Source of the DNA: Candidatus Cloacimonadota bacterium
GTDB taxonomy: Bacteria; Cloacimonadota; Cloacimonadia; G963667145
DNA length: 64,000 bases
NCBI GenBank assembly: GCA_963667255.1
Contig: OY762940.1
Coordinates: forward strand, 416,001 to 480,000
Reading direction: 5' to 3'
Made by a program: the position numbers and the translations under genes. Shown here in pieces: positions 28,799 through 42,740 of the stretch (the stretch's first letter is position 1; every line of letters begins with the position of its first letter). The notes under the pieces are model-generated. The model was not told the DNA's origin. It saw only the letters and a program-made list of their open reading frames with translations, and ran no database searches.

Positions 28799-31085
28799 AG
28801 CCCAAAATCCTCAACTCTTCTTCCGTCGCTCTCACTTCCCGCGGCTTGCTCCCCAGATGTGGTCCGATTATCCCCGCTTGCTCCAACAAATCGATTAATC
28901 TGCCCGCTCTGGCGTAACCTATTTTGAAATGCCTCTGCAGCATCGAAACCGAAGCCGTTTTGCTCTCAACGATAAACTTCGCTGCCTCCACAAATAGGTC
29001 ATCTTCCTGCTCAAAACCATTGCTTATAATGTCGGCTTCCTCGGTAAACAATTGCAAATTATCTTTCGGTTTCGGCTGAGTTTTCAGATACTCCACCACG
29101 CTCTCTATCTCCTCATCAGAGATATAAGCACCGTGAACCCTTATCACATCAGATTTCCCCGGAGCCAAAAACAACATATCGCCTCGTCCCAGCAATTTTT
29201 CCGCTCCATTAGCATCCAAGATAACGCGAGAATCTATTTTGGAGGAAACCCGAAAAGCTATTCGCGAAGGGAAATTCGCCTTAATGATACCGGTAATAAC
29301 TTGGGTTGACGGGCGTTGAGTCGCCAAAATCAGATGAAATCCCACAGCTCTACCCATCTGTGCCAAACGGGTAATCGGCTTTTCGATGTCCTTTCCTGCG
29401 GTCATTATCAAATCCGCAAATTCATCCACCACCAACACAATATACGGCAATTTCTTCACTCTCTCCGCTTCCGCCAGATGTCCCTGTTTCAGACCATCAA
29501 CTACTTTATTAAACGAAAACAAATCACGAACATTGTATTTTTGCAACAACATATACCGCTCATCCATCTCCTTCGCAGCCCAGTTCAAAGCTCCCAAACT
29601 ATCCTCAGGCAAAGTTATGATTTCGTGCAAAAGATGGGGGATATCCGCATAACCTGATAACTCAATTTTCTTTGGGTCTATCATTATCATCCGCATCTCG
29701 TCCGGCGTGAGATTAAACAGCAGAGAGTTTATTATCGTATTAATGCAAACACTTTTGCCCGAGCCGGTAGCACCAGCGATGAGCAAATGCGGTGTTTTGG
29801 ACAAATCGGTTACCACAGGATTTCCCACAATATCCACACCCAGAGCGATAGGCAAAAACATATTTTTTTTGTATCCCTCCAAAACTTTGCGGAGAGTAAT
29901 CGTCTCTATTTTCTCATTGGGAAGCTCTATGCCAATCTTGTCCTCGCCTGGAATAGGAGCTTGCACTCTTATGGAGAAGGCTCTCAACGCCAAAGAAAGG
30001 TCGTCTTGCAAAGAGATAAACCGACTAACCTTAACTCCGGGGGAGGGCTTCAACTCAAATTGCGTAATCACAGGTCCATAATTGACCCCGACAACCTTGG
30101 CTTCCACTCCGAACTCAGCCAATTTTTTCTCCAAAATAGAAGCAATTTTATCCGACCTGCTCTTCAATTTGGAGAGATTTTTCGCCGTTTCTACGGGAAC
30201 AGCTTTTAGAAAAACATCAACTCTCGGCAAAACAAATTTTTCAGTGCTGCTAACTTGTTGATTATGCTCTTTTTGTGAAGATGTTCCATGTGGAACAAAT
30301 TTTTCAGTATTTTTTGTATCAGACTTATTTTCCTTTATCTTATCATTCTTCGGTTCTTCTGGAAAAGCGAACTCTTCAAATACGCTTTCACTAACACCAT
30401 CAAACACAATTTCTCTCGTTTGCTCGGTAGTAAGTTCTTTTGGAGTTCTTTTAAAAATTCCCGAAAGAGTTTTTGGCGTATTTAACGGGTTTCCGAAACA
30501 GAATATCTTTTTAATCCAAACACAAATTTTTTCCGTTTCTTTGTATGTTTTGTTTATTCCTTTACCAATTGCTTCAAAAAAAGAGAAGATTTTGTTCAGT
30601 TCCAAAAACAAAACAAAGAAGAAACAAGAAACAAAAAAAGAGACGATTGCCGAACCGACTTTGCCAAGAACTTGCGAAAAGAAAGATAAATAGTTCTCAC
30701 CCAAAATTCCAACAGGGGAAGAGAAAGCATTCAGGTGAATGAGAAAAAAATAGAAGAAAGATGCAAACAGAAAAAAGCCGAAAAGTTTACTAACCCAAAG
30801 ACCTATTCGAACAGGCAAAAGCAAAATCAATCCCAAGAGAAAAAGAACGAAGCTGACCAAGTAAACAAAGTAGTTTCCAAAAATCAAATATCCCCAAAAA
30901 CTAATCACGAGACCAAAAACTCCTACGGGATTAGAAGTGACAACGCCAAACTTCTCACTGCCCTTTATGGAGGCAAAAGTCCGATAGTCAAAAAGCGTGT
31001 CCACATATCCGGCAGACAGAGCGATAAAAACAAGGGCGGAAAATAAAATAATTACTCCGCCCCAAAAAAATCTTCTTTTACTCAT
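28791..31085 (-). CDS. ftsK: DNA translocase FtsK
   Basis: N-terminal TMs, PHLLIAGATGSGKS, VDEFADL, ATQRPS, gamma domain IGYARAGR. Confidence 0.96.
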   Translation of the reverse strand: MSKRRFFWGGVIILFSALVFIALSAGYVDTLFDYRTFASIKGSEKFGVVTSNPVGVFGLVISFWGYLIFGNYFVYLVSFVLFLLGLILLLPVRIGLWVSKLFGFFLFASFFYFFLIHLNAFSSPVGILGENYLSFFSQVLGKVGSAIVSFFVSCFFFVLFLELNKIFSFFEAIGKGINKTYKETEKICVWIKKIFCFGNPLNTPKTLSGIFKRTPKELTTEQTREIVFDGVSESVFEEFAFPEEPKNDKIKENKSDTKNTEKFVPHGTSSQKEHNQQVSSTEKFVLPRVDVFLKAVPVETAKNLSKLKSRSDKIASILEKKLAEFGVEAKVVGVNYGPVITQFELKPSPGVKVSRFISLQDDLSLALRAFSIRVQAPIPGEDKIGIELPNEKIETITLRKVLEGYKKNMFLPIALGVDIVGNPVVTDLSKTPHLLIAGATGSGKSVCINTIINSLLFNLTPDEMRMIMIDPKKIELSGYADIPHLLHEIITLPEDSLGALNWAAKEMDERYMLLQKYNVRDLFSFNKVVDGLKQGHLAEAERVKKLPYIVLVVDEFADLIMTAGKDIEKPITRLAQMGRAVGFHLILATQRPSTQVITGIIKANFPSRIAFRVSSKIDSRVILDANGAEKLLGRGDMLFLAPGKSDVIRVHGAYISDEEIESVVEYLKTQPKPKDNLQLFTEEADIISNGFEQEDDLFVEAAKFIVESKTASVSMLQRHFKIGYARAGRLIDLLEQAGIIGPHLGSKPREVRATEEELRILGYV
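30282..30297. promoter_or_regulatory. parS centromere-like site inside the ftsK linker
   Basis: TGTTCCATGTGGAACA, 15/16 match to the palindrome TGTTCCACGTGGAACA. Confidence 0.8.
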
Positions 31086-32337: not shown

Positions 32338-32880
32338 ATGCAAATAAGTATGACAGCCAGACACTTCGAGTTAACAGATTCAGTTAAGGACTTTATCAAC
32401 ACAACCTGCGAACACTTTTCGCTCTATTTCGAAAACATCATTGATGTGAAAGTAATCTTGGATTACAATAGCTCCAAAACAAACAATTTGTCTGTTTCCA
32501 TCAGTGTTCACTCTTCTGGAAACGATTTCAGAGCGGAAACCGAGGATGACGATTTGTTTAAAGCCGTAGACCTCTGTGCTCAAAAGATAGAAAGCCAACT
32601 TAAAAAAGAAAGAAAAAAAGAGATTAGCAATCATAAAAACAAAAGTAAAAACTATTCCAAAAGGTCAAAAAGTTTACTATTCAAAAAAGGTCGTGGCGAC
32701 GAAAACAAAATTGAATTGGAAGAAAATATCTTCTTCAGCACTCCTATGGAAACCGACGATGCCATAAAACACATGGAAGAGAACGATTTGAACTACTTCG
32801 TTTATAGAAATACAAAATCCGAAAAAGTTGATACTATCATCAAAATTGATGATGAACATTACAAAATAATCGAAGCTTAA
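32338..32880 (+). CDS. hpf: Ribosome hibernation promoting factor (long form)
   Basis: MQISMTARHFELT...DLFKAVD...C-terminal PMETDDAI..YFVYRN. Confidence 0.85.
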   Translation: MQISMTARHFELTDSVKDFINTTCEHFSLYFENIIDVKVILDYNSSKTNNLSVSISVHSSGNDFRAETEDDDLFKAVDLCAQKIESQLKKERKKEISNHKNKSKNYSKRSKSLLFKKGRGDENKIELEENIFFSTPMETDDAIKHMEENDLNYFVYRNTKSEKVDTIIKIDDEHYKIIEA

Positions 32881-32900
32881 ATTTTTCTCTATCTAATTTA

Positions 32901-33839
32901 ATGAAAAAACTTACCTCTCAAGAACTTTTTGATTTACTGGGAAAAGACCAAATCCTCAGCAAGATAACTGACGAAAAGACTTTTTCCACTGTAATCACTA
33001 ACCCGTATATCAACCGACCGGGGCTCGCTCTTGCCGGATATTTTGAAAGGTTTTCGTATGATCGTGTGCAGATTTTGGGCGACCCCGAAGTTGGCTATAT
33101 CCAAAGTTGTGCCAAAGACAAAATGTATGACATCCTTAAAAAAATGTTCACTTACAACATTCCTTGTCTGTTTTTTTGCAAAGGCAACACCGTCCCGAGT
33201 TACATTACCATTTTGGCAAACGAATCCAATATCCCTATTATCCAAACTCCCACTTCTACGGACAACCTGCTAAGTTTGCTCTCGCAACAGCTGGGAATAT
33301 TCTTCAGCCCTCGCACTATCGAACATTCCACTTTCCTTGATATCTATGGTGCCGGAGTGCTTATTACTGGTAAAAGCGGAGTGGGGAAAAGCGAGAGTGC
33401 TTTGGACTTGATAGAGAGAGGTCATCGACTCATCTGCGACGACTCCACCAGTATCTCCAAAATGCCCAACGGTTCACTGCTTGGCACATCTACGAGGGAA
33501 GACAGCTCTTTCATGGAGATAAGAGGTATCGGGATAGTCGATATTCAAAAAATGTTCGGGATACAAGCCATCAAGAAAAAGAAAAGCTTGGATATGATTA
33601 TCGAGCTTGTCCCGTATAATGTAAACAAAAATTACGATTCGATAAACACTGAGAGGCTGGATAATAAAAAATTTAGAAGTATTTTGCAAACGCCCGTTCC
33701 GCTTTTTCAACTTCCAGTTTCTCCTGGTAAAAATATGTCAATCCTCATAGAGACAGCTGTGCTCAACTTCCTCTCGATTTCTATGGGCTACGATGCGGCT
33801 AAGACCTATATAGAAAAACAAAAGAAATTTTTTAAATAA
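32901..33839 (+). CDS. hprK: HPr kinase/phosphorylase
   Basis: RPGLALAG, GKSGVGKSE, DD, EIRGIGI, PGKN. Confidence 0.95.
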   Translation: MKKLTSQELFDLLGKDQILSKITDEKTFSTVITNPYINRPGLALAGYFERFSYDRVQILGDPEVGYIQSCAKDKMYDILKKMFTYNIPCLFFCKGNTVPSYITILANESNIPIIQTPTSTDNLLSLLSQQLGIFFSPRTIEHSTFLDIYGAGVLITGKSGVGKSESALDLIERGHRLICDDSTSISKMPNGSLLGTSTREDSSFMEIRGIGIVDIQKMFGIQAIKKKKSLDMIIELVPYNVNKNYDSINTERLDNKKFRSILQTPVPLFQLPVSPGKNMSILIETAVLNFLSISMGYDAAKTYIEKQKKFFK

Positions 33840-33841
33840 TT

Positions 33842-34114
33842 ATGATTTCCAAAACAGTAACTATAAGCAACAAATCTGGCATTCATGCCAGACCGGCACA
33901 GCTGATTGTCCAAACAGCAGAGGAGTTCTCTTCTGAAATTTTTTTGGAGAAAATCGACGAGGGATTTAAGGCAAACGCCAAAAGTATCTTCAATGTGATG
34001 GCAATGGCAGGAGAATGTGGCGACAATATTCAGATTACCACCAACGGTGATGACGAAGACGAGGCTCTGGAAGCGATGTTAGATTTATTCGACAGAAATT
34101 TTACCAATGAGTAA
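33842..34114 (+). CDS. ptsH: Phosphocarrier protein HPr
   Basis: GIHARPA (His15), NAKSI (Ser46). Confidence 0.95.
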   Translation: MISKTVTISNKSGIHARPAQLIVQTAEEFSSEIFLEKIDEGFKANAKSIFNVMAMAGECGDNIQITTNGDDEDEALEAMLDLFDRNFTNE

Positions 34115-35735
34115 GACAATAGAAAATGCCGGCTTTCCCCTTTGCGAAGGATGTGTGATAGGCAAAACGCTTAAAATAAGCGATGCCAAAAATCCCTATG
34201 AAAATAAATCCATCAAAAAAGAGGAAATCGAACAAGAGTTGCAACGACTGGAAAATTCGCTCGTTAAAGCCAATGAGGATATAGACAATACTCTGGAAAA
34301 TATCTCCTCGGAGAATAACAATCTCAACGAAATTATAAAAATTCACAAATCTATTTTGAACGACCCGGAGATTAAAAAAGGAATTATTGACCTCATAAAA
34401 AACAAATTGCACTCTATGGAACACGCTATCAATCAAAAATTTATGGAAATTGAAAACAGTTTTGCTACCATAAAAAACCCATATTTAAAAGAAAGAGTCA
34501 ACGATTATGTTTTTGTTAAAAACACACTTATCAATAAACCTGCGAAAAAAGAAGAGGGAGAAATAAACGAGCCGACCATTTTACTGATGAAAGATATCTC
34601 GCCAGAGCAAGTTATAAGATATCATAACAACAAAAACATTTTGGGAATTTGCCTCAAACACGGAAGCAGAACTTCCCACGCATCAATCATCATAAAATCA
34701 CTCAATCTGCCTGCCATTATAGAAACTTCTACAAACTACAAAAGCATCCCAAACAATAAATTGGTGGTTTTCAATTCGTATGAGAACAAACTGGTAATAA
34801 ATCCAGAAAAATCTGACATAATTGAATGCGACAGAATAATAGAAAAAGAACAAGAAAATTTGAATAAATTGCAAGAATTGGTAAAAAAACCGGCGATTAC
34901 CAAAAGTGGAAAACGCATAAAATTGAGAGCCAATCTGGAGTTTGAAGAAGAAATCCCTTTGGCAATAAAAAACGGTGCTGAAGGCGTTGGACTGTTAAGA
35001 ACAGAGATGTTTTATCTCAACCGTAAAATGTTACCGAGCAAAGAGGAACAATTTACCTATTACAAAAAAATCGTCTCCTCTTTTGAAAACAGCGTTACCA
35101 TCAGAACTTTGGATTTAGGTGGAGACAAAAACACTCTTCTGCTTAAAACAAAAAAAGAGGAAAACCCAAATCTTGGACTTAGAGGAATAAGGTTTTCGCT
35201 ATCAAAGCCGGAAATCTTCGTAGAGCAGTTGGAAGCTATTTTAATGGCATCAACTTATGGGAAAATAAAAATTTTACTCCCGATGGTTTCAAAAATAGAA
35301 GAGGTCCGCGAAACCAAAAAAATCTTAGATAATTGCAAAAAAAAACTAAGAGAAAAGAATATTCCTTTTGATAATAATATTCAATTAGGAGTTATGATAG
35401 AAGTGCCTTCGGCGGTCTTTGAAGTAGAATCTTTTGCTAAGGAATGCGATTTTTTTAGTATAGGAACAAACGATTTGACACAATATATTATGGCTATAGA
35501 TAGAAACAACGACCATGTGAAAGATTACTATGATGAAACAAATCCTGCAGTTTTAACCGCACTAAAAATAGTGGTAGATGGAGCCAAAAAACACAATAAA
35601 ACCGTTTCTCTCTGCGGAGAAATAGCATCAAATCCAGAGAAATTGAAAACTTTTATTGAATTAGATGTTGACGAAGTTAGCGTAAGCACAAGTTCATTAT
35701 TAAAAATAAAAGAAAAGATAATAAACTACAGATGA
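34107..35735 (+). CDS. ptsI: PTS enzyme I
   Basis: RTSHASI, GLLRTE, RTLDLGGDK, ENPNLGLRGIR, SIGTNDL, CGE. Confidence 0.95.
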   Translation: MSKTIENAGFPLCEGCVIGKTLKISDAKNPYENKSIKKEEIEQELQRLENSLVKANEDIDNTLENISSENNNLNEIIKIHKSILNDPEIKKGIIDLIKNKLHSMEHAINQKFMEIENSFATIKNPYLKERVNDYVFVKNTLINKPAKKEEGEINEPTILLMKDISPEQVIRYHNNKNILGICLKHGSRTSHASIIIKSLNLPAIIETSTNYKSIPNNKLVVFNSYENKLVINPEKSDIIECDRIIEKEQENLNKLQELVKKPAITKSGKRIKLRANLEFEEEIPLAIKNGAEGVGLLRTEMFYLNRKMLPSKEEQFTYYKKIVSSFENSVTIRTLDLGGDKNTLLLKTKKEENPNLGLRGIRFSLSKPEIFVEQLEAILMASTYGKIKILLPMVSKIEEVRETKKILDNCKKKLREKNIPFDNNIQLGVMIEVPSAVFEVESFAKECDFFSIGTNDLTQYIMAIDRNNDHVKDYYDETNPAVLTALKIVVDGAKKHNKTVSLCGEIASNPEKLKTFIELDVDEVSVSTSSLLKIKEKIINYR

Positions 35736-35977
35736 TAATTTTAATAAAACTAATAGATTTATACTCTTTGCTCATAGTCGTCAGAGCTGTTATTTCTTGG
35801 ATTAGCACTCCTACAAATAGCACTATTTATTACTATATCTATAAACTAACCGAACCTATGCTGGCCAAATTAAGATTTATCTCTTTGCGACTCAATTTAC
35901 CTTTCGATATCTCTCCAATAATTGTTCTTCTTGCCCTTAATTATATTAAAAAATTTTTGATTACCTATCATGTCTAA
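35732..35977 (+). CDS. YggT family membrane protein
   Basis: RAVISW...LTEPML...DISPII. Confidence 0.85.
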   Translation: MIILIKLIDLYSLLIVVRAVISWISTPTNSTIYYYIYKLTEPMLAKLRFISLRLNLPFDISPIIVLLALNYIKKFLITYHV

Positions 35978-36458
35978 AATAAAAAAGAGTTTTGCATTCA
36001 TTGTTCTATTACTAATTATTGCTGACCAGATTACCAAATATTTGGCATTGACTTTTTATAAAGAAATAGGTTTTTACTCATACTCTATCGTGGATGACTT
36101 TTTAAAGTTCACTTTTGCTAAAAATTTTGGTGCGGCTTTTTCTCTCGCTTTTTTTAAAAATAGCACCGCTAATAACTACTTTTTTATTTTTATAACAACC
36201 ATTGCAATTTTAATAATAGTTAAAATTTTAATAAAAACAGAAAAAAAACTGGAAATAGTAAGTTATTTTTTAATAATAGGCGGAGCTGTAGGAAATTTGA
36301 TAGATAGGGTAATCCACGGGTTTGTTATAGATTTTATTGATTGCGATTTTCCCGATATTATTATAGAAAGATGGCCGGTATTTAACTTAGCTGATTCCTA
36401 TATCTGCATTGCCATTTGCATTCTTATTATCCAATCCGTAAAGGTAGTAAAAAAATGA
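35970..36458 (+). CDS. lspA: Signal peptidase II
   Basis: DQITK, NFGAAFS, GAVGNLIDR, VIDFI, VFNLAD. Confidence 0.95.
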   Translation: MSKIKKSFAFIVLLLIIADQITKYLALTFYKEIGFYSYSIVDDFLKFTFAKNFGAAFSLAFFKNSTANNYFFIFITTIAILIIVKILIKTEKKLEIVSYFLIIGGAVGNLIDRVIHGFVIDFIDCDFPDIIIERWPVFNLADSYICIAICILIIQSVKVVKK

Positions 36459-36724
36459 AAAAAAACATAATTCCTAATAGTAAGACAGATTTTGCAAAAT
36501 TTGTCGCAAAAAGTGCCATAAATCTAATCTTAAGCGATAAGAATAATAAACAAGCTATGGAAAATTACCAATTAAAATTAAACTACGAAAAAAAACTCTT
36601 AAAAATAGATAAAAAAATAAACGAATTAAATTATAAAATAAAATCACTAAAAAATAAACTTTTTCTTATATTTATTGTTATGATAGTTGCTATTTTATAT
36701 TTTTCCGGAATAATTATTAAGTGA
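36455..36724 (+). CDS. Small hypothetical coiled-coil protein with C-terminal TM helix
   Basis: ATG overlaps the lspA stop; ends just before the dnaA SD. Confidence 0.55.
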   Translation: MKKNIIPNSKTDFAKFVAKSAINLILSDKNNKQAMENYQLKLNYEKKLLKIDKKINELNYKIKSLKNKLFLIFIVMIVAILYFSGIIIK

Positions 36725-36732
36725 GGTAAAAA

Positions 36733-38064
36733 ATGAATTCTTTAGACCAAGATATATGGGACAATATTCTAAATAAATTAGAAGAATCCATTAATGAACA
36801 GAGTTTCAACACTTTTTTCAAATATACTAACTTAATAGAGTTAAAAGAGAATGAGTTATCCATAGAGGTTGAAACAGACTTTGCTGCAGGATTTTTAAAC
36901 CAAAATTATGCAAAAACAGCAGAAGAGATAGCGTGGCAACTCTATGAAAAAAAATATAAAATAAGATTTTATGGAAAAAACAGACAAATATCTGTCGAAA
37001 AGAAAGAAGAAGAAAAAAACCAAATGACCACTAAAATAAAATTGAATGATAGGTTCACTTTTGACCAATTTGTTGTGGGTAAAAATAATAATTTTGCGTA
37101 TTCCGCTGCCTACGGCGTTTCAGAAAACCCGGGAACAAAATATAATCCACTATTTATTTATGGAAACTCTGGTATGGGAAAAACACACCTTATGCAAGCT
37201 ATTGGACACTATATACAAAATTGTTCCATAAAAAAGAAGGTTATTTACACAACATCCGAAAATTTTACAAACGAGTTAATACAATCTATTCAAACAAAAA
37301 CCACAGAAAGCTTTAGAAATAGTTATAGAAATGTTGATGTTCTCTTGATAGACGACATCCAATTTTTTAAACGGAAAGAATCATCTCAAGAAGAATTTTT
37401 TAGCACTTTTAATATTTTATATAATAACCAGAAACAAATAGTTATTACCAGTGATAAACCTCCAAAAGATTTGGATGGAATAGAAAAAAGATTGGTTAGT
37501 AGATTTGAGGGTGGTTTGACTGTGGATATATCTATCCCCGACTACGAAACTAGAGTAGCTATTGTAGAAAATAAAATAAAGAGAGATGGCACAAAATTAT
37601 CAAAAGAAGTAGTAAATTTTATTTGTGAAAACATCGTCGATAATATTAGATCACTCGAAGGAGCTATAACAAAATTATTAGCCTATTCATCTTTCCATAA
37701 TATCCAAACCGAAGAAATAGAAATAAACCTTGCAAAAGATATATTATCTTCGCTCATATCCAAAAAAATAGAAGCTTTAACTTTAGATAATATAAAAGAT
37801 AAAATATGTGAAAAATATAAAATAAGCAGTAAGGATATCTTTTCAAAAACAAAGAGAAAAGACATAGTATTCCCAAGACAAATCGGAATGTATTTATCAA
37901 ATTTCTTAATCCCACAATTAGCGTTAATTAACATAGCACAATATTATAAAAGAAAAGACCACTCAACCGTAATAAATGCACGAAGATTAATACAAAATAA
38001 AATGAAAGAAGATAAATCATTTTACTTAGAAATACAAAAACTTATAGAAAATATAAAATACTAA
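36733..38064 (+). CDS. dnaA: Chromosomal replication initiator DnaA
   Basis: YNPLFIYGNSGMGKTHL, LLIDDIQF, RLVSRF, NIRSLEGA, KDHSTV. Confidence 0.97.
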   Translation: MNSLDQDIWDNILNKLEESINEQSFNTFFKYTNLIELKENELSIEVETDFAAGFLNQNYAKTAEEIAWQLYEKKYKIRFYGKNRQISVEKKEEEKNQMTTKIKLNDRFTFDQFVVGKNNNFAYSAAYGVSENPGTKYNPLFIYGNSGMGKTHLMQAIGHYIQNCSIKKKVIYTTSENFTNELIQSIQTKTTESFRNSYRNVDVLLIDDIQFFKRKESSQEEFFSTFNILYNNQKQIVITSDKPPKDLDGIEKRLVSRFEGGLTVDISIPDYETRVAIVENKIKRDGTKLSKEVVNFICENIVDNIRSLEGAITKLLAYSSFHNIQTEEIEINLAKDILSSLISKKIEALTLDNIKDKICEKYKISSKDIFSKTKRKDIVFPRQIGMYLSNFLIPQLALINIAQYYKRKDHSTVINARRLIQNKMKEDKSFYLEIQKLIENIKY

Positions 38065-38250
38065 TAAACAATCAGTGCATAATAAAAAGGAAACATAAAG
38101 TAATACACAAAAACTAAATAAAAAAGAAAAAAATAAAACTAAAACCAAACAATTAATAAACAAAATATAATAAACCTAACTATCTTTTAAAAAAGAAAAT
38201 ATATATAATAAACACAAAAAAACAAAATCTACTACAACGATAAATTTAAA
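38062..38250. other. Putative oriC (A-rich DnaA-box variants followed by trio-like repeats)
   Basis: TAATA(A/C)AC(A/C) at 38062, 38101, 38154, 38168 and 38206; AGTGCATAA at 38074; CTA-CTA-CAA-CGA at 38229-38240; near the change in codon strand bias. Confidence 0.6.
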
Positions 38251-38268
38251 TAATAAGGTAAATAATAA

Positions 38269-39036
38269 ATGAAGAAACTCTGCATATTAATTTTAATAAT
38301 CTGTATAATAGGATGTAAAAAAAAAAAAGACATCGTGGCAAAAGTTAATAACTATATTCTAACACAAGAAAATCTAAAAACCTTAAATGTAACACAAAAA
38401 AACAAGAAAGAGTTTGTAACAGAATGGATTAACTTAAAACTATTAGCTTGCTCTATAGAAAACAATGAGCTTATTAATCTTAAAAAAGAAAACTATGAAA
38501 CTAAATTAAAAGCAAACATTTATATATCTAAATTATTAGAAAGTGAAAATATAGATAAAGATGAGCTATTAGAATATTATAATGCGAATTACCAAAATTT
38601 TTATAAAGAGATAACCAAATATAAATTTCAAAAAATATATTTATCAAATAAAAAAAACAAAGATAATTTAGTTAAAGAATTAAGTAAAATAAGCGGAATA
38701 ACATTCAGTGAATTAGCTAAAAAATATTCAGAAGAATTGTATGGAAAAAATGGAGGATATACCGGCTTTGTGGATAAAGAAAGTATAAGACCTCTTGTTT
38801 GGGATAAATTAACTAACTCTGAAATAGGAAAGTATTATTGGATTGATGTTCCCGAAGGCTATGTAATAGGAAGATGGTATGAAAAGAAAGATTTTAAAAT
38901 ACAATTAGGTTTCGAACAAGTAAAAAACGATATAATAAAAATTTTAAAAAAAGAGGATAGAAAAAAAATAATAGAAAAAGAGCTACAAAGATTAAGAAAA
39001 ATAAATAAAGTAGAAATTAATTTAGATTATAATTAA
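38269..39036 (+). CDS. PpiC/parvulin-like foldase lipoprotein
   Basis: Lipobox IIGC, IVAKVN, FSELAKKYSE...KNGGYTGF. Confidence 0.75.
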   Translation: MKKLCILILIICIIGCKKKKDIVAKVNNYILTQENLKTLNVTQKNKKEFVTEWINLKLLACSIENNELINLKKENYETKLKANIYISKLLESENIDKDELLEYYNANYQNFYKEITKYKFQKIYLSNKKNKDNLVKELSKISGITFSELAKKYSEELYGKNGGYTGFVDKESIRPLVWDKLTNSEIGKYYWIDVPEGYVIGRWYEKKDFKIQLGFEQVKNDIIKILKKEDRKKIIEKELQRLRKINKVEINLDYN

Positions 39037-39046
39037 GGGAGAAAAA

Positions 39047-39370
39047 ATGAATAATATTTTTTTAGCACAAGAGAATCTTTTAGGTTCACTATTACCATTT
39101 ATTTTAATGATAGTGATAATTTGGTTTTTAATAATAAGACCACAAAAAAAGAGACAAAAAGAACATAAAAATATGTTGGAAAATCTCAAAACAGGAGATA
39201 AAGTAATAACAAATGGTGGAATGCAAGGAATAATATCTAAAATAAATGTAGAGAAAAACTTAGTTTCTATAAAAGTAGCAGATAATATAAAAATAGATTT
39301 TCTTATATCTTCCATCGCAACCAAAATATTAGACAAAAAAGTAGATGATAAAGAAGAAAAAAAGTTTTAA
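39047..39370 (+). CDS. yajC: Preprotein translocase subunit YajC
   Basis: FLIIRPQKKR...LKTGDKVITNGGMQG. Confidence 0.93.
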   Translation: MNNIFLAQENLLGSLLPFILMIVIIWFLIIRPQKKRQKEHKNMLENLKTGDKVITNGGMQGIISKINVEKNLVSIKVADNIKIDFLISSIATKILDKKVDDKEEKKF

Positions 39371-39860
39371 TATTAGCTTATTAGGGAAAAAAGAACTAAA
39401 AAAAATAAGCGAAGAAATTATAGAAATAAGCGAAAATATAAAAGATTTGGCTATGGATATGGCTAATACTATGTATTCAAGTAATGGAGTTGGCTTAGCT
39501 GCTCCACAAATCGGAAAAAATTTGCGTATTTTCGTTATAGATACTTCTAAAAAGAAAAATGATTTGAAAATTTTTATAAATCCTAAAATCATAAGCATGA
39601 AAGGTATGGAAATAAACGAGGAAGGTTGCATTAGTATTCCTGGTATTTATGCCGAAGTTCCCAGAGCGACAGAAGTGGAAATTGAAGCTTTTGACGTGGA
39701 TGGCAAAAAGTTTAAATTAAAAGCAGAAGGCTTGCTCGCTATAGCTATCCAACATGAAAATGACCATCTTAATGGGAAACTCTTTATAGATTATTTAAGT
39801 AAAACGAAACTCTTAGAATTAAAAAGCGAATTAGATAAAATAAAATGCAAAGAAAATTAA
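39345..39860 (+). CDS. def: Peptide deformylase
   Basis: GVGLAAPQIG, EGCIS, QHENDHLNG. Confidence 0.95.
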   Translation: MIKKKKSFNISLLGKKELKKISEEIIEISENIKDLAMDMANTMYSSNGVGLAAPQIGKNLRIFVIDTSKKKNDLKIFINPKIISMKGMEINEEGCISIPGIYAEVPRATEVEIEAFDVDGKKFKLKAEGLLAIAIQHENDHLNGKLFIDYLSKTKLLELKSELDKIKCKEN

Positions 39861-40369
39861 AATCTATAAAATTATTGGTTTCCGATTGTGATGGAGTGTT
39901 GACAAATGGCTTATATTATTATGGATTACAAGATTTAACTGTTAAAACCTTCCATACTCAAGACGGTTTAGGAATAAATATGTTCCAAAATTTTGGCTAC
40001 AAATTTGCTGTGATAACCGGAAAAACAAGTGTGGCTTTACAACAAAGATGTGAAGATATTGGGGTTAAATATCTATATCAAAAAATAAAAAATAAGGTTG
40101 AAATATTAGATAGTCTACGGATAAAACTGAATTTAGATTGGGAAAATATAGCTTATATTGGTGATGATTTAAACGACTTAAAGTGCATAGAATTATCGGG
40201 ATTTACTGCTTGTCCGGCTGATTCAAACAAAAAAATTCTGAATACGGTTGATTTCGTTTGTTCCAAAGCCGGTGGTTATGGTTGCGTGCGAGAAGTTATT
40301 GATTTTATTCTGGAAGAAAAAAAAGAATTGGCAGATGCTCAAAATAAATTTATCGAAAGTCTGTCTTAG
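39845..40369 (+). CDS. kdsC: KDO 8-phosphate phosphatase (HAD family)
   Basis: DCDGVLT, DGLG, ITGK, YIGDDLND, GGYGCVRE. Confidence 0.9.
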   Translation: MQRKLKSIKLLVSDCDGVLTNGLYYYGLQDLTVKTFHTQDGLGINMFQNFGYKFAVITGKTSVALQQRCEDIGVKYLYQKIKNKVEILDSLRIKLNLDWENIAYIGDDLNDLKCIELSGFTACPADSNKKILNTVDFVCSKAGGYGCVREVIDFILEEKKELADAQNKFIESLS

Positions 40370-40898
40370 TTTTTTTATACTATTTATGCTTGTTTCTTGT
40401 GTAAAAGGCGAAGACATCCTTGATAAAGGGAAGAAGTTTTTTGATAAAGAGGATTTGCCGGAAAAAACAAGCGATACTGTTTCACTGGTCTCTATGGAAG
40501 AGGATAAAATAAAGTGGTTTCTGAAAGCTGATCATATTAAAGAGTTTGCTAAGAAGAAAAAAATATATGCCAAAAAAATGACAATCTATGTTTTTGATGT
40601 TGATGACAATATAGTTTCCACAATGACAGCTGATAGTGCCAAAATAGACGAAGTAACTAAAATGCTTAAAGCTGAAAGTAATGTTAAAATATTGAGTTCT
40701 AATGGGGTTTTGGAAACCTCTATACTTTACTGGAATCTGGCAAATAACAGCATTTTTACCAAAGAAAAAGTGAAAATAACTCGTGGCGAAAATGTTATGT
40801 ATGGGCAAAATTTATATACAGATGTTGCTTTAAATTCGGCTAAATTAGACGATATTAAGGGAGAGGGAGAGGTTGAAGAAAATAGTATTGCTTTCTAA
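40335..40898 (+). CDS. lptC: LPS export protein LptC
   Basis: Position kdsC-X-lptA-lptB; ADSA...V...LETSILYWN; start codon uncertain. Confidence 0.75.
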   Translation: MLKINLSKVCLSFFILFMLVSCVKGEDILDKGKKFFDKEDLPEKTSDTVSLVSMEEDKIKWFLKADHIKEFAKKKKIYAKKMTIYVFDVDDNIVSTMTADSAKIDEVTKMLKAESNVKILSSNGVLETSILYWNLANNSIFTKEKVKITRGENVMYGQNLYTDVALNSAKLDDIKGEGEVEENSIAF

Positions 40899-41991
40899 TT
40901 TTTTTTTGTTTGTTATTATTTCCTGCCTTTTCGGGACAAAGATAAAAAGCATTGAGGAACGAACTGTAAAAAAAAGTTCGAAAAACTATAAGATAATTAA
41001 TTCGGATGTCCTCAATTTAAAAAAAGATGGAAACGAAATTATCTCTCAAATGAGAGGTAATGTGCATTTTTTTTACGATAATATAGAGTTTTTTAGTGAT
41101 GAAGCGGAGATATATGAGAAACAGCAAAAAGTTAAACTGATAAAAAATGTGATAATTAAGCAAGATACGATTACCGTGAAAGCGGAAGATGTTACTTATT
41201 TAAAAGAGCTAAACAAAATAATTCTCACGGAAAATGTATTTATCAAAATTGATTGCAAAAGTAGTAAAACTATAAAAACCTTTTCTTGTCAAACAGCGGA
41301 AATAGACAGAAAAAGTGGCGATTTGAAAGCGGATAAGGATGTTAGGGTTTTTGACGAATCACGAAAAGTGAAGGTTTTTTGTGGTAAGATGCGTTATAAT
41401 ATGCATACGCGAAAAGGTTATTTGGTCGATAATCCCGAGATTTTTTCGGTTGATGATGATTCTACAAAGTTGATTGCTCAGAAGATAGATATATTGGATG
41501 GTCAAAATAAAATAAAAGCTATTTACGGAGTGAAGACGATTTCGGCAAATCATCAGACCGAAAGTGAGGAGTTGGTGTTTCTAAATGAGGAAAAAAAGAT
41601 AATTATGCTGGGAGAGCCAAAGTTTTATTCCAAAAAATTGTATGCGGAAGCTAAGAGGTTCTATTTTTATTCCGATATGTCTTTTAAAAATATAGAAAAA
41701 ATAGTTCTTGAGGAAGATTGTGAGGTTGATTTTCCGAGTGAAGAGGGCAAAGCTTTTGACAATCATTTGGTTTCTGGTAGAGTTAACTTGAACTTCACGG
41801 ACTCAAATCTAAAGAATGTTGTGGCTACGGAGAAAGTGGCGTTGAGCTTGATTAACGAAGATTCAACGGGGGTGTCGGTAAACAAGATTTACGGAGATAC
41901 TTTGTTTTTGCGGTTTAATGATGAAAAAAGATTGGAATATATGACTATGAAAAGTCAGAGGGTTAACGGAGTTTTTAAATTTAAGAATTAA
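40873..41991 (+). CDS. OstA/LptA-like multi-jellyroll protein
   Basis: Repeated GNV/ENV beta-jellyroll motifs; directly upstream of lptB. Confidence 0.7.
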   Translation: MKKIVLLSNFFLFVIISCLFGTKIKSIEERTVKKSSKNYKIINSDVLNLKKDGNEIISQMRGNVHFFYDNIEFFSDEAEIYEKQQKVKLIKNVIIKQDTITVKAEDVTYLKELNKIILTENVFIKIDCKSSKTIKTFSCQTAEIDRKSGDLKADKDVRVFDESRKVKVFCGKMRYNMHTRKGYLVDNPEIFSVDDDSTKLIAQKIDILDGQNKIKAIYGVKTISANHQTESEELVFLNEEKKIIMLGEPKFYSKKLYAEAKRFYFYSDMSFKNIEKIVLEEDCEVDFPSEEGKAFDNHLVSGRVNLNFTDSNLKNVVATEKVALSLINEDSTGVSVNKIYGDTLFLRFNDEKRLEYMTMKSQRVNGVFKFKN

Positions 41992-41993
41992 TA

Positions 41994-42740
41994 ATGAAGA
42001 ACGAAATAGAAATCAAAAATATTGTGAAATACTATGGCTCTAAGTTGGTGTTGCGAGACATAAATGTGAAGATAACACAGGGAGAGTGCGTGGGAATAAT
42101 GGGTCCGAACGGAGCCGGTAAATCAACGACTTTTTATATTGTGCTTGGACTTATCAAAGCGACCGCAGGGCAAGTTTTGTTCAATGGTAAGTTGATTAAT
42201 AATTTACCGATGTATAAAAGAGCAAGATTAGGTATTGGTTATCTTGCTCAGCAACCGTCTATTTTTCACAATCTTACTGTGGAACAAAATGTTATGGCAA
42301 TTTTAGAGATGCTAAAGATTTCTAAAGTGGAAAAAAGAAGACGGTTGGATGAACTTTTGGCTGATTTGGATTTGACCAAATTGAGCAAGCAAAAGGCTTA
42401 TACGCTATCGGGCGGAGAGAGGCGAAAATTGGAAATTACCAGATCGCTAGTAACAAATCCTTCGTTTTTGCTTTTAGACGAACCATTTGCCGGAGTTGAC
42501 CCTAAAGCTGTGGAAGATATACAAAAAATTATCAAGAAATTGGGCGAAAAAAACATCGGAGTTCTGATAACAGACCACAATGTGATAGAAACTCTGAAGA
42601 TTGTGCAAAGGGCTTACATTGTGTTTAATGGAGAGATTCTATTTTCCGGAACATCAGCGGAGCTTGTAAACGACAAAAGAGCCAGAGAGGTTTATTTGGG
42701 GAACAGCTTTATGCAGCACAATTTTAGCGAACAAAATTAA
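41994..42740 (+). CDS. lptB: LPS export ABC ATPase
   Basis: GPNGAGKS, PMYKRARLGIGYL, LSGGERR, DEPFAGVDP, ITDHNV. Confidence 0.96.
   Translation: MKNEIEIKNIVKYYGSKLVLRDINVKITQGECVGIMGPNGAGKSTTFYIVLGLIKATAGQVLFNGKLINNLPMYKRARLGIGYLAQQPSIFHNLTVEQNVMAILEMLKISKVEKRRRLDELLADLDLTKLSKQKAYTLSGGERRKLEITRSLVTNPSFLLLDEPFAGVDPKAVEDIQKIIKKLGEKNIGVLITDHNVIETLKIVQRAYIVFNGEILFSGTSAELVNDKRAREVYLGNSFMQHNFSEQN

What the first reader, a model, noticed from the sequence alone, without database searches (positions are those of the whole stretch)
38062..38250. oriC-like spacer with A-substituted DnaA boxes and a divergent DnaA recognition helix
Seen: the spacer after dnaA has no TTATCCACA. It has five same-orientation TAATA(A/C)AC(A/C) 9-mers plus one opposed AGTGCATAA; after the last box comes CAAAAAAACAAAAT and then CTA CTA CAA CGA. 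Established: many origins end in tandem DnaA boxes, a short GC-rich motif and DnaA-trios; here the layout appears retained but C/T positions are A. DnaA domain IV reads ALINIAQYYKRKDHSTVINA in place of SLPEIG..FGGRDHTTVLHA (conserved Pro and last His changed). Inference: this is oriC and box specificity may have co-evolved with DnaA. The AT-rich background makes chance 9-mers more likely.
Basis: partly seen in the sequence, partly recalled or inferred. Interest (0 to 1): 0.7.

Follow-up and report, generated by a model that had tools for sequence, protein, structure and literature searches.

The report
Replication origin with A-eroded DnaA boxes
The spacer after dnaA is very likely the chromosome's replication origin; in this small-genome Cloacimonadota genus the initiator protein lacks a near-universal DNA-reading arginine and its forward binding sites are A-runs ending in ACA, which likely reflects loosened rather than switched site recognition.

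Summary
The spacer (38065-38268) is very likely oriC. The G/C skew of silent sites switches there, and the tandem-box, linker and CTA-trio module sits exactly where 81 other Cloacimonadota have it. In all six genus members the forward boxes are A-runs keeping only 3' ACA (65 of 69 departures go to A). The distal reverse box still reads TTTT(A/C)CACA or TTATGCACT. Loss of the Pro is class-wide. Best reading (0.6): DnaA readout relaxed to the 3' half, letting a top-strand A drift erode the rest while the trios fix the melting site. This is a single evolutionary event and untested. The origin also lies in an 8-kb low-GC trough, a pattern this scan noted earlier in other genomes.

The parts
36733..38064 (+). 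dnaA, 443 aa; the only domain-IV-bearing gene found in the genome
   Evidence: TIGR00362 482.6 bits over cut-off 343.9; Pfam DnaA_N, Bac_DnaA, Bac_DnaA_C; one PF08299 match in G000
37402..37404 (+). Ser224 = B. subtilis His231 (AAA+/AAA+ filament interface, essential in B. subtilis)
   Evidence: S in 6 of 6 genus members; H in 41 and N in 1 of 42 outgroups; mapping; essentiality in PMC6669920 passage
37852..37854 (+). Lys374 = E. coli Arg399, the minor-groove reader of the box's 5' TTA
   Evidence: alignment to 1J1V; K in 6 of 6 genus members, R in 94 of 94 parsed outgroups; role from PMC5742627 passage
37963..37977 (+). recognition helix S411-T-V-I-N415 = E. coli T435 to H439 (T435S, H439N)
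   Evidence: N in 6 of 6 genus members and 0 of 94 outgroups (H 87, Y 7); T435S is common elsewhere (14 of 36 unrelated DnaAs had R/S/H)
38065..38268 (+). predicted oriC spacer; 65% A on the top strand, within the most A-rich 200-bp window on either strand of the genome
38062..38070 (+). forward box F0 at the dnaA stop (TAATAAACA; relatives AAATAAACA, AAAAAAACA, AAAAGAACA)
   Evidence: outgroups have a TTATCCACA/reverse-box pair near the stop
38074..38082 (-). reverse box R1, TTATGCACT (1 mismatch to TTWTNCACA); TTTTACACA or TTTTCCACA in 4 relatives, deleted in G001; likely high-affinity distal anchor
38097..38109 (.). relic of reverse box R2 (top strand AAAGTAATA; TGTGTAAAA in two relatives) overlapped by TAATACACA, which has no counterpart in relatives
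38154..38173 (+). forward pair at 11-bp spacing: F1 TAATAAACA (its ACA invariant in 6 of 6) and a second site decayed here to ATATAATAA
   Evidence: alignment A1
38208..38216 (+). BUS box B1 (-21 from trios): ATAAACACA; outgroup consensus TTATNNNCA
   Evidence: C at -14 in 6 of 6 (with a 1-nt gap in G001)
38216..38224 (+). BUS box B2 (-13 from trios): AAAAAAACA; outgroup consensus ATATNCACA
   Evidence: C at -6 in 5 of 6
38225..38228 (+). 4-nt linker, AAAT here (AACC or TACC in four relatives, often GC-rich in outgroups)
38229..38243 (-). DnaA-trios (top strand CTA CTA CAA CGA TAA); two perfect trios here, four or more in 5 of 5 relatives
38244..38268 (.). AT-rich tract after the trios (no C, 2 G), predicted unwinding element
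34000..42000 (.). V-shaped low-GC trough centred on the spacer, across housekeeping genes (ptsI, lspA, dnaA, PPIase-like, yajC, def, kdsC, lptC); limits approximate
   Evidence: GC 0.26 within 2 kb vs 0.41 at 5-10 kb; GC3 0.23 vs 0.46; gene names
30282..30297 (.). parS-like perfect 16-bp palindrome inside ftsK, 7.8 kb from the spacer
   Evidence: only copy within 2 mismatches in G000; present at -7.8 kb in 6 of 6 genus members; parS label recalled; ParB_N gene present

Best explanation
The spacer is very likely the chromosomal origin of the ancestral box-plus-trio (BUS) type, and this genus's DnaA is predicted to read mainly the 3' (C)ACA half of a box because it carries Lys instead of the minor-groove Arg399 and Asn instead of His439. 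Shown: the residue changes, the A-run boxes, the kept ACA and trios, and the skew switch. Inferred steps: (1) With 5' readout relaxed, an A-ward drift on the top strand of the origin, milder in other Cloacimonadota, eroded the now unconstrained T and C positions of forward boxes. (2) The same drift leaves the 5' half of reverse boxes T-rich, so they still look canonical, and selection keeps their G-rich 3' half. (3) DnaA would dock at a distal reverse anchor and cooperatively on weak ACA sites; the AAA+ filament would extend from B1/B2 onto the trios and melt the AT-rich tract, the trios supplying most of the positional information.
For: Origin: skew changepoint -300 to +1000 bp, cumulative minimum +177 in G002, G003, G004; terminus about 770 kb away; same -21/-13/4-nt/trio layout as 81 well-anchored outgroups; parS-like site 7.8 kb away in 6 of 6. 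Trio-capturing and filament residues N187, I190, I193, R202, R206, F218, K222, E223, E228, R264, L269, G317 are intact (roles). Relaxation: R399 reads 5' TTA and the helix reads 3' TnCACA. Outgroups with R399 keep T4 in B1 79 of 81, T4 in B2 79 of 81 and C6 in B2 79 of 81, even in A-rich spacers G047 and G069 (A 0.50); in the genus T4 is kept in 0 of 6 B1 and 1 of 6 B2. C8 of B1/B2 is kept in 6 of 6 and 5 of 6, while no non-box column among 39 reaches 5 of 6, although dnaA silent sites between these genomes are near saturation (identity 0.21-0.52 vs 0.25-0.33 expected). Strand drift: 65 of 69 forward-box departures go to A; spacer AT skew 0.49-0.60 vs outgroup median 0.10, maximum 0.44; silent-site A/(A+T) rises from about 0.40 in the flanks to 0.53-0.54 within about 1 kb. 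The relaxed signature (two ACA 8 bp apart, 4 nt, CTA.TA) occurs twice in 1.59 Mb, and once in its W-rich form (patterns drawn from this site).
Against: One lineage, so one event and no independent contrast. The genus DnaA is on a long branch: 28 of 160 outgroup-conserved columns changed, and 3 of 5 base readers changing has only P = 0.038, chosen post hoc. Arg to Lys is conservative and may still enter the minor groove. R1 is a perfect TTWTNCACA in 4 of 5 genomes that have it, so DnaA may still prefer canonical boxes. Outgroup G068 has ATAAACACA at B2 with an unchanged DnaA, so some erosion needs no protein change. The spacer is more A-skewed than nearby silent sites, and low-GC genes elsewhere already reach A 0.34-0.40 at silent sites, so drift alone may not explain it. 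In G000 itself the cumulative-skew minimum is at window 34754, 3.3 kb away on a plateau, and only two perfect trios are present. No binding or coverage data.
Confidence: 0.6

Rival explanations
1. Anchor plus decay: DnaA specificity is essentially unchanged (canonical TTWTNCACA). The forward boxes are weak sites eroded by a local mutational A drift, tolerated because cooperative filament growth and the trios do the work, and the protein changes are by-products of the long branch and the AT-rich trough.
For: R1 canonical in 4 of 5; G068 has an eroded B2 with normal DnaA; many unrelated DnaA positions also changed (28 of 160); dnaA lies in the GC trough; E. coli uses low-affinity sites cooperatively; a distal box works in either orientation in B. 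subtilis.
Against: G001 has a 94-bp spacer with no box within 1 mismatch of TTWTNCACA on either strand. The genus has 0 of 6 perfect boxes upstream of dnaA, against 31 of 34 parsed outgroup genomes with at least one (24 loci unparsed, one mis-sized row and four duplicates dropped). A-rich outgroup spacers keep TTAT.
Confidence: 0.2
2. A-tract shape is itself the signal: selection favours top-strand A-runs (narrow minor groove, bend, or a T-rich bottom strand) that the Lys-containing loop or an HU/IHF-type protein recognises.
For: Most A-rich 200-bp window of the genome (0.655 vs next 0.595); maintained across six near-saturated genomes; stronger than the bias at nearby silent sites; 6-11 A-runs of 4 or more and almost no T-runs per spacer; two HU/IHF genes.
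Against: Silent sites near the origin also shift toward A, which selection on the spacer does not predict; the A-runs are not conserved in position. The shape properties of A-tracts are recalled, not tested.
Confidence: 0.12
3. One reading: DnaA switched to a new consensus TAATA(A/C)AC(A/C).
For: Five copies, densest cluster in the genome; H439N and R399K are genus-specific.
Against: Relatives with the identical DHSTVINA helix do not carry the motif at homologous sites; reverse boxes are not TGTTTATTA-like; three of five copies are out of register; motif-blind enrichment is marginal.
Confidence: 0.05
4. The spacer is a decayed relic and replication starts elsewhere (for example near window 32-35 kb) or without DnaA boxes.
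For: G000 and G001 cumulative minima lie 3.3 kb upstream; RNase HI family not found in the 4 genus members searched; H231S hits a residue essential in B. subtilis.
Against: Silent sites of + strand genes keep C over G up to the spacer and switch after it; no other cluster of perfect boxes within 8 kb; trios and ACA are conserved; RNase HI was also not found in the outgroup searched.
Confidence: 0.03

Closest known systems
Bacillus subtilis incC basal unwinding system (PDB 8BTG; PMC6669920, PMC10721633, PMC8287927)
   Same: Origin directly after dnaA; tandem boxes, short linker, trios, AT-rich tract; distal boxes; trio-capturing residues conserved.
E. coli DnaA domain IV (PDB 1J1V; base contacts R399, P423, D433, H434, T435, H439 per PMC2533591 and PMC7561715 passages)
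   Same: Same domain (E 1.4e-9); D433 and H434 kept.
   Different: R399K, P423I, T435S, H439N: four of six contacts differ; only R399K and H439N are unique to this genus among the Cloacimonadota examined.
Thermotoga maritima DnaA with its divergent box AAACCTACCACC (PMC10225481, PMC7561715 passages)
   Same: Changed reading residues accompany changed boxes.
   Different: Thermotoga keeps the arginine and has a new defined consensus; here the arginine is what changed and the boxes lost information rather than gaining a new word.
Aquifex aeolicus DnaA (PDB 1L8Q, 2HCB)
   Same: Also lacks the Pro and has KRKDH before the helix.
   Different: Keeps R399, T435 and H439.
Other Cloacimonadota origins (94 outgroup genomes examined)
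   Same: Identical BUS geometry and trios.
   Different: Canonical TTAT/ATAT boxes, R399 in 94 of 94, milder A skew and shallower GC trough.

Membership tests
Bacterial oriC | Replication-strand skew switches at the site | tested here: met
   Pooled silent-site changepoint -300 to +1000 bp; minimum at +177 in 3 of 6 genomes; plateau minimum -3.3 kb in G000 and G001
Bacterial oriC | Intergenic, next to dnaA, with AT-rich unwinding tract | tested here: met
Bacterial oriC | Cluster of consensus DnaA boxes (TTWTNCACA) | tested here: not met
   No perfect box and two 1-mismatch boxes in G000; none in G001; 1-2 perfect reverse boxes in the other four
Bacterial oriC | Read-coverage peak or autonomous replication | not testable with these tools
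   Only contigs were available and none spanned the stretch
BUS-type origin (Pelliciari 2021 criteria) | Better tandem box within 2 mismatches of TTATCCACA, other within 4 | tested here: not met
   ATAAACACA 3, AAAAAAACA 5 mismatches (criteria)
BUS-type origin (Pelliciari 2021 criteria) | Box-to-trio spacer at most 16 bp | tested here: met
   12 bp from the end of B1 to the first trio, same geometry as outgroups
BUS-type origin (Pelliciari 2021 criteria) | At least three consecutive trios with central adenine | tested here: inconclusive
   Two perfect then CAA CGA in G000 (words also seen in outgroup G034); four or more in 5 of 5 relatives
BUS-type origin (Pelliciari 2021 criteria) | DnaA with trio-binding ISM residues and arginine finger | tested here: met
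   N187, I190, I193, R202, K222, E223, E228, R264 conserved; H231 is Ser, R321 is Lys, N196 is Lys
BUS-type origin (Pelliciari 2021 criteria) | Box- and trio-dependent strand separation by cognate DnaA | not testable with these tools
   bench assay
Lineage-specific switched DnaA box (Thermotoga-like) | One new consensus shared by boxes of both orientations and by close relatives | tested here: not met
   Forward boxes AAA(T/A)AAACA-like, reverse TTTT(A/C)CACA

The most novel reading that the evidence does not exclude
A natural DnaA that has given up base readout of the box's 5' half (R399K, H439N) and locates its origin by phased ACA half-sites in A-tracts plus the DnaA-trios, with G001's 94-bp spacer a natural minimal origin carrying no recognisable DnaA box. 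The A-tract would arise from, or be selected within, an origin-centred mutational footprint that also lowers GC at silent sites over about 8 kb.
Probability: 0.35. Interest if true: 0.72.

Novelty: new variant of a known kind. Interest (0 to 1): 0.5.

Why it matters
It offers a natural test of how much origin specificity comes from the double-stranded boxes and how much from the trios and filament cooperativity. Six complete genomes carry a DnaA without the arginine that even Thermotoga keeps, and 94 relatives give a clean ancestral control. Such origins fail the published BUS search thresholds, so they may account for part of the 15% of genomes where no BUS was found (PMC8287927). The origin-centred GC trough and strand-specific A drift point to an unexplained local mutational process that can reshape an essential element.

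Tried and rejected
Pro423 loss as a specificity change: rejected, class-wide and in Aquifex. T435S as special: rejected, common in unrelated DnaAs. Repair loss as cause of the drift: mutS, mutM, UDG and one HhH-GPD gene found in 4 of 4 genus members searched; mutY not found in the genus but also not in 35 of 42 outgroups, so not specific. RNase HI family not found in 5 of 5 including the outgroup. ParB spreading as cause of the trough: disfavoured, the trough centres on the spacer while GC at the parS-like site is about 0.41. Genome-wide Markov over/under-representation of box words: essentially no signal; only AAAANMACA reached z 2.2 of 10 patterns. More genus members in metagenome contigs: none among 43 loci. 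Reads: no RNA holder listed; three contig runs gave no piece spanning the stretch, so coverage and sequence could not be checked that way; six separately assembled genomes with different spacer sequences argue against an assembly artefact. Single-sequence AlphaFold of domain IV was unusable (pLDDT 47) and was not searched. A dif-like pattern search was too loose to be informative. A strand-polarised 8-mer turned out to be a CRISPR-like array. The promoter scan showed nothing distinctive in the spacer. The Fujikawa 2003 structure paper was not held; base contacts come from passages in other papers. Literature searches on an origin-centred GC trough or relaxed DnaA specificity found no paper on either in the listings; three returned nothing and the library lacks most subscription journals. 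Supplements of PMC8287927 (predicted BUS table) were not read and may list Cloacimonadota origins. No broad protein-database survey of R399K was run.

Full report
Setting. The window is 416001-480000 of a single 1,587,896-bp contig. Its five closest relatives (same genus, one contig each, 1.5-1.6 Mb; DnaA 81-92% identical) are matched by records titled Cloacimonadota or Cloacimonadales. The gene at 36733-38064 is dnaA. It lies at the end of a run hpf, hprK, HPr, ptsI, yggT, lspA and an 89-aa ORF, and is followed by a PPIase-like protein, yajC, def, kdsC, lptC and lptB.

Observation. The five 9-mers, the opposed AGTGCATAA, the trios and the protein sequence are as described. The motif as written is not reached by shuffles (0 of 20000 at 4 or more), but it was chosen from the sequence; motif-blind controls give 1.4% and 13%. 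The stronger fact is compositional: this is the most A-rich 200-bp window on either strand of the genome (0.655; next 0.595) and the most A-rich of 215 co-directional spacers (0.63; next 0.52).

Is it the origin? Cumulative GC skew has its minimum at window 34754, on a flat plateau from about 32.5 to 38.3 kb, and its maximum at 1,224,616. The plateau covers + strand genes that point toward the spacer. Using only four-fold silent sites of + strand genes pooled over six genomes, C exceeds G up to the spacer and the changepoint falls at -300 to +1000 bp from the dnaA stop. The raw minimum is at +177 in G002, G003 and G004, +694 in G005, and about -3.3 kb in G000 and G001. Of 94 outgroup genomes parsed (6 others not parsed), 81 had a well-anchored module (13 dropped by score): two boxes at -21 and -13, a 4-nt linker and CTA trios. 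The genus has the same geometry. A parS-like palindrome lies 7.8 kb away in 6 of 6 (label recalled). Read coverage could not be tested. I put the origin assignment at about 0.95.

What the boxes really are. Anchoring on the trios and the stop codon, the homologous sites here are F0 TAATAAACA (38062), R1 TTATGCACT (38074, reverse), a relic of R2 (38097), F1 TAATAAACA (38154), B1 ATAAACACA (38208) and B2 AAAAAAACA (38216). In relatives F0 is AAATAAACA, AAAAAAACA or AAAAGAACA; B1 and B2 are A-runs ending in ACA; R1 is TTTTACACA or TTTTCCACA. Against the class consensus, 65 of 69 departures in forward boxes are T>A or C>A on the top strand. In reverse boxes 12 of 25 go to A and 8 are G>T, partly at the free fifth position and partly from one box read 1 nt off register. 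A switched specificity would change the same box positions in both orientations; it does not. Outgroups keep T4 in 79 of 81 B1 and 79 of 81 B2, and C6 in 79 of 81 B2; the genus keeps T4 in 0 of 6 and 1 of 6. The C of the final ACA is kept in 6 of 6 and 5 of 6, while no non-box column among 39 reaches 5. Since dnaA silent sites are near saturation between these genomes, the ACA and the trios are likely under selection. G001 has lost about 70 bp including both reverse boxes and has no site within one mismatch of TTWTNCACA. The genus also lacks the upstream boxes that 31 of 34 parsed outgroup genomes have.

The protein. E. coli base contacts are R399, P423, D433, H434, T435 and H439 (passages of PMC2533591 and PMC7561715). 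R399 reads the 5' TTA in the minor groove and the helix reads 3' TnCACA (passage of PMC5742627). By alignment to 1J1V this DnaA has K, I, D, H, S, N. Pro is missing at that position in all 42 outgroups and in Aquifex, which have or are taken to have ordinary boxes, so it explains nothing. T435S is common. R399K and H439N are in 6 of 6 genus members, 0 of 94 outgroups and 0 of 36 unrelated DnaAs parsed from 77 loci. The trio-capturing residues named in PMC10721633 (passages) and seven of the eight filament residues of PMC6669920 (passage) are conserved or conservatively changed (R321K); H231 is Ser in 6 of 6. Caution: 28 of 160 outgroup-conserved columns differ in the genus, so three of five readers changing is only modestly unusual (P = 0.038).

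The surroundings. All six genomes show a V-shaped GC trough about 4 kb each side of the spacer, 0.13-0.16 below the flanks, with GC3 0.17-0.25 lower, across housekeeping genes. Forty outgroups with enough flank range from +0.01 to -0.11; their flanking genes differ, so the comparison is not gene for gene. Silent-site A/(A+T) rises from about 0.40 to 0.53-0.54 within about 1 kb (0.58-0.64 in the last 500 bp of dnaA), but low-GC genes elsewhere in G000 are also fairly A-rich. The spacer's AT skew (0.49-0.60) exceeds all 81 outgroups (median 0.10, maximum 0.44). No genus-specific repair loss was found. Four earlier notes of this scan report origin-centred GC troughs in other genomes and one reports changed DnaA readers in a Clostridia genome; I did not check those. 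In E. coli mutation-accumulation data the rate is depressed around oriC at 200-kb scale (passages of bioRxiv 10.1101/523696), which neither explains nor excludes a kilobase-scale bias. The cause is open.

Mechanism. Most likely (0.6): relaxed readout plus strand drift. Outgroups with A-rich spacers but intact R399 (G047, G069) keep TTAT/ATAT in their boxes, whereas the lineage with K399 does not, which is what loss of constraint predicts. The same top-strand A drift makes the 5' half of a reverse box T-rich, so reverse boxes look canonical without needing 5' readout, while their TGTG half persists against the drift. DnaA would load at the distal anchor (B. subtilis tolerates either orientation there) and on ACA half-sites, then polymerise onto the trios as in the B. 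subtilis BUS. All binding steps are inferred. Rivals: unchanged specificity with decayed weak sites (0.2), selected A-tract shape (0.12), switched consensus (0.05), origin elsewhere (0.03).

Comparison and novelty. It works like a B. subtilis-type BUS origin but fails the published box thresholds (3 and 5 mismatches against limits of 2 and 4; PMC8287927, parts 2 and 4 of 5 read), and G000 has only two perfect trios. It is not a Thermotoga-type switched box (PMC10225481 passages). Searches for a description of this found none, within a library that lacks most subscription journals. Verdict: a new variant of a known kind, real and directly testable, resting on a single lineage; interest 0.5. Papers seen: PMC8287927 two parts; PMC10721633 passages and section 8; PMC6669920, PMC2533591, PMC7561715, PMC5742627, PMC10225481 and 10.1101/523696 passages; PMC13220808 searched with no hits; Fujikawa 2003 not seen.

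Noticed in passing
window 34000-42000: Origin-centred low-GC trough at silent sites of housekeeping genes in all six genus members; the three next-deepest troughs are in small outgroup genomes (G148 -0.11, G068 -0.08, G019 -0.08; 1.4-1.8 Mb), hinting at a link with genome size.
   Followed up: partly
window 30282-30297: parS-like palindrome inside ftsK, conserved 7.8 kb from the origin in 6 of 6 genus members; the parB gene is far away (genome 939 kb).
   Followed up: partly
window 32338-38064: dnaA appears to be the last gene of a 5.7-kb co-directional run (hpf, hprK, HPr, ptsI, yggT, lspA, 89-aa ORF) pointing at the origin, with no promoter or box region directly upstream, unlike most outgroups; autoregulation by upstream boxes may be lost.
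   Followed up: partly
window 36455-36724: 89-aa ORF with a C-terminal hydrophobic stretch, no Pfam or NCBIfam hit, conserved before dnaA in all six genus members.
   Followed up: no
window 36814-36816 (DnaA residue 28): Domain I Trp (W in 42 of 42 outgroups, aligned to B. subtilis W27) is Phe in 6 of 6 genus members; from recall this surface binds accessory factors; not verified.
   Followed up: no
G001 spacer (L002, after dnaA stop): 94-bp stop-to-trio spacer with 1% G and no recognisable DnaA box: candidate natural minimal origin.
   Followed up: partly
genome G000 about 836 kb (outside window): CRISPR-like array with about 125 repeats at roughly 65-bp period.
   Followed up: no
L130-L132, L203 (G048, G097, G058, G172): One outgroup genus has trios starting TTG TTA TTA rather than CTA after canonical boxes.
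   Followed up: no
48 Cloacimonadota genomes: mutY found in only 7 of 48; RNase HI family in 0 of 5.
   Followed up: no
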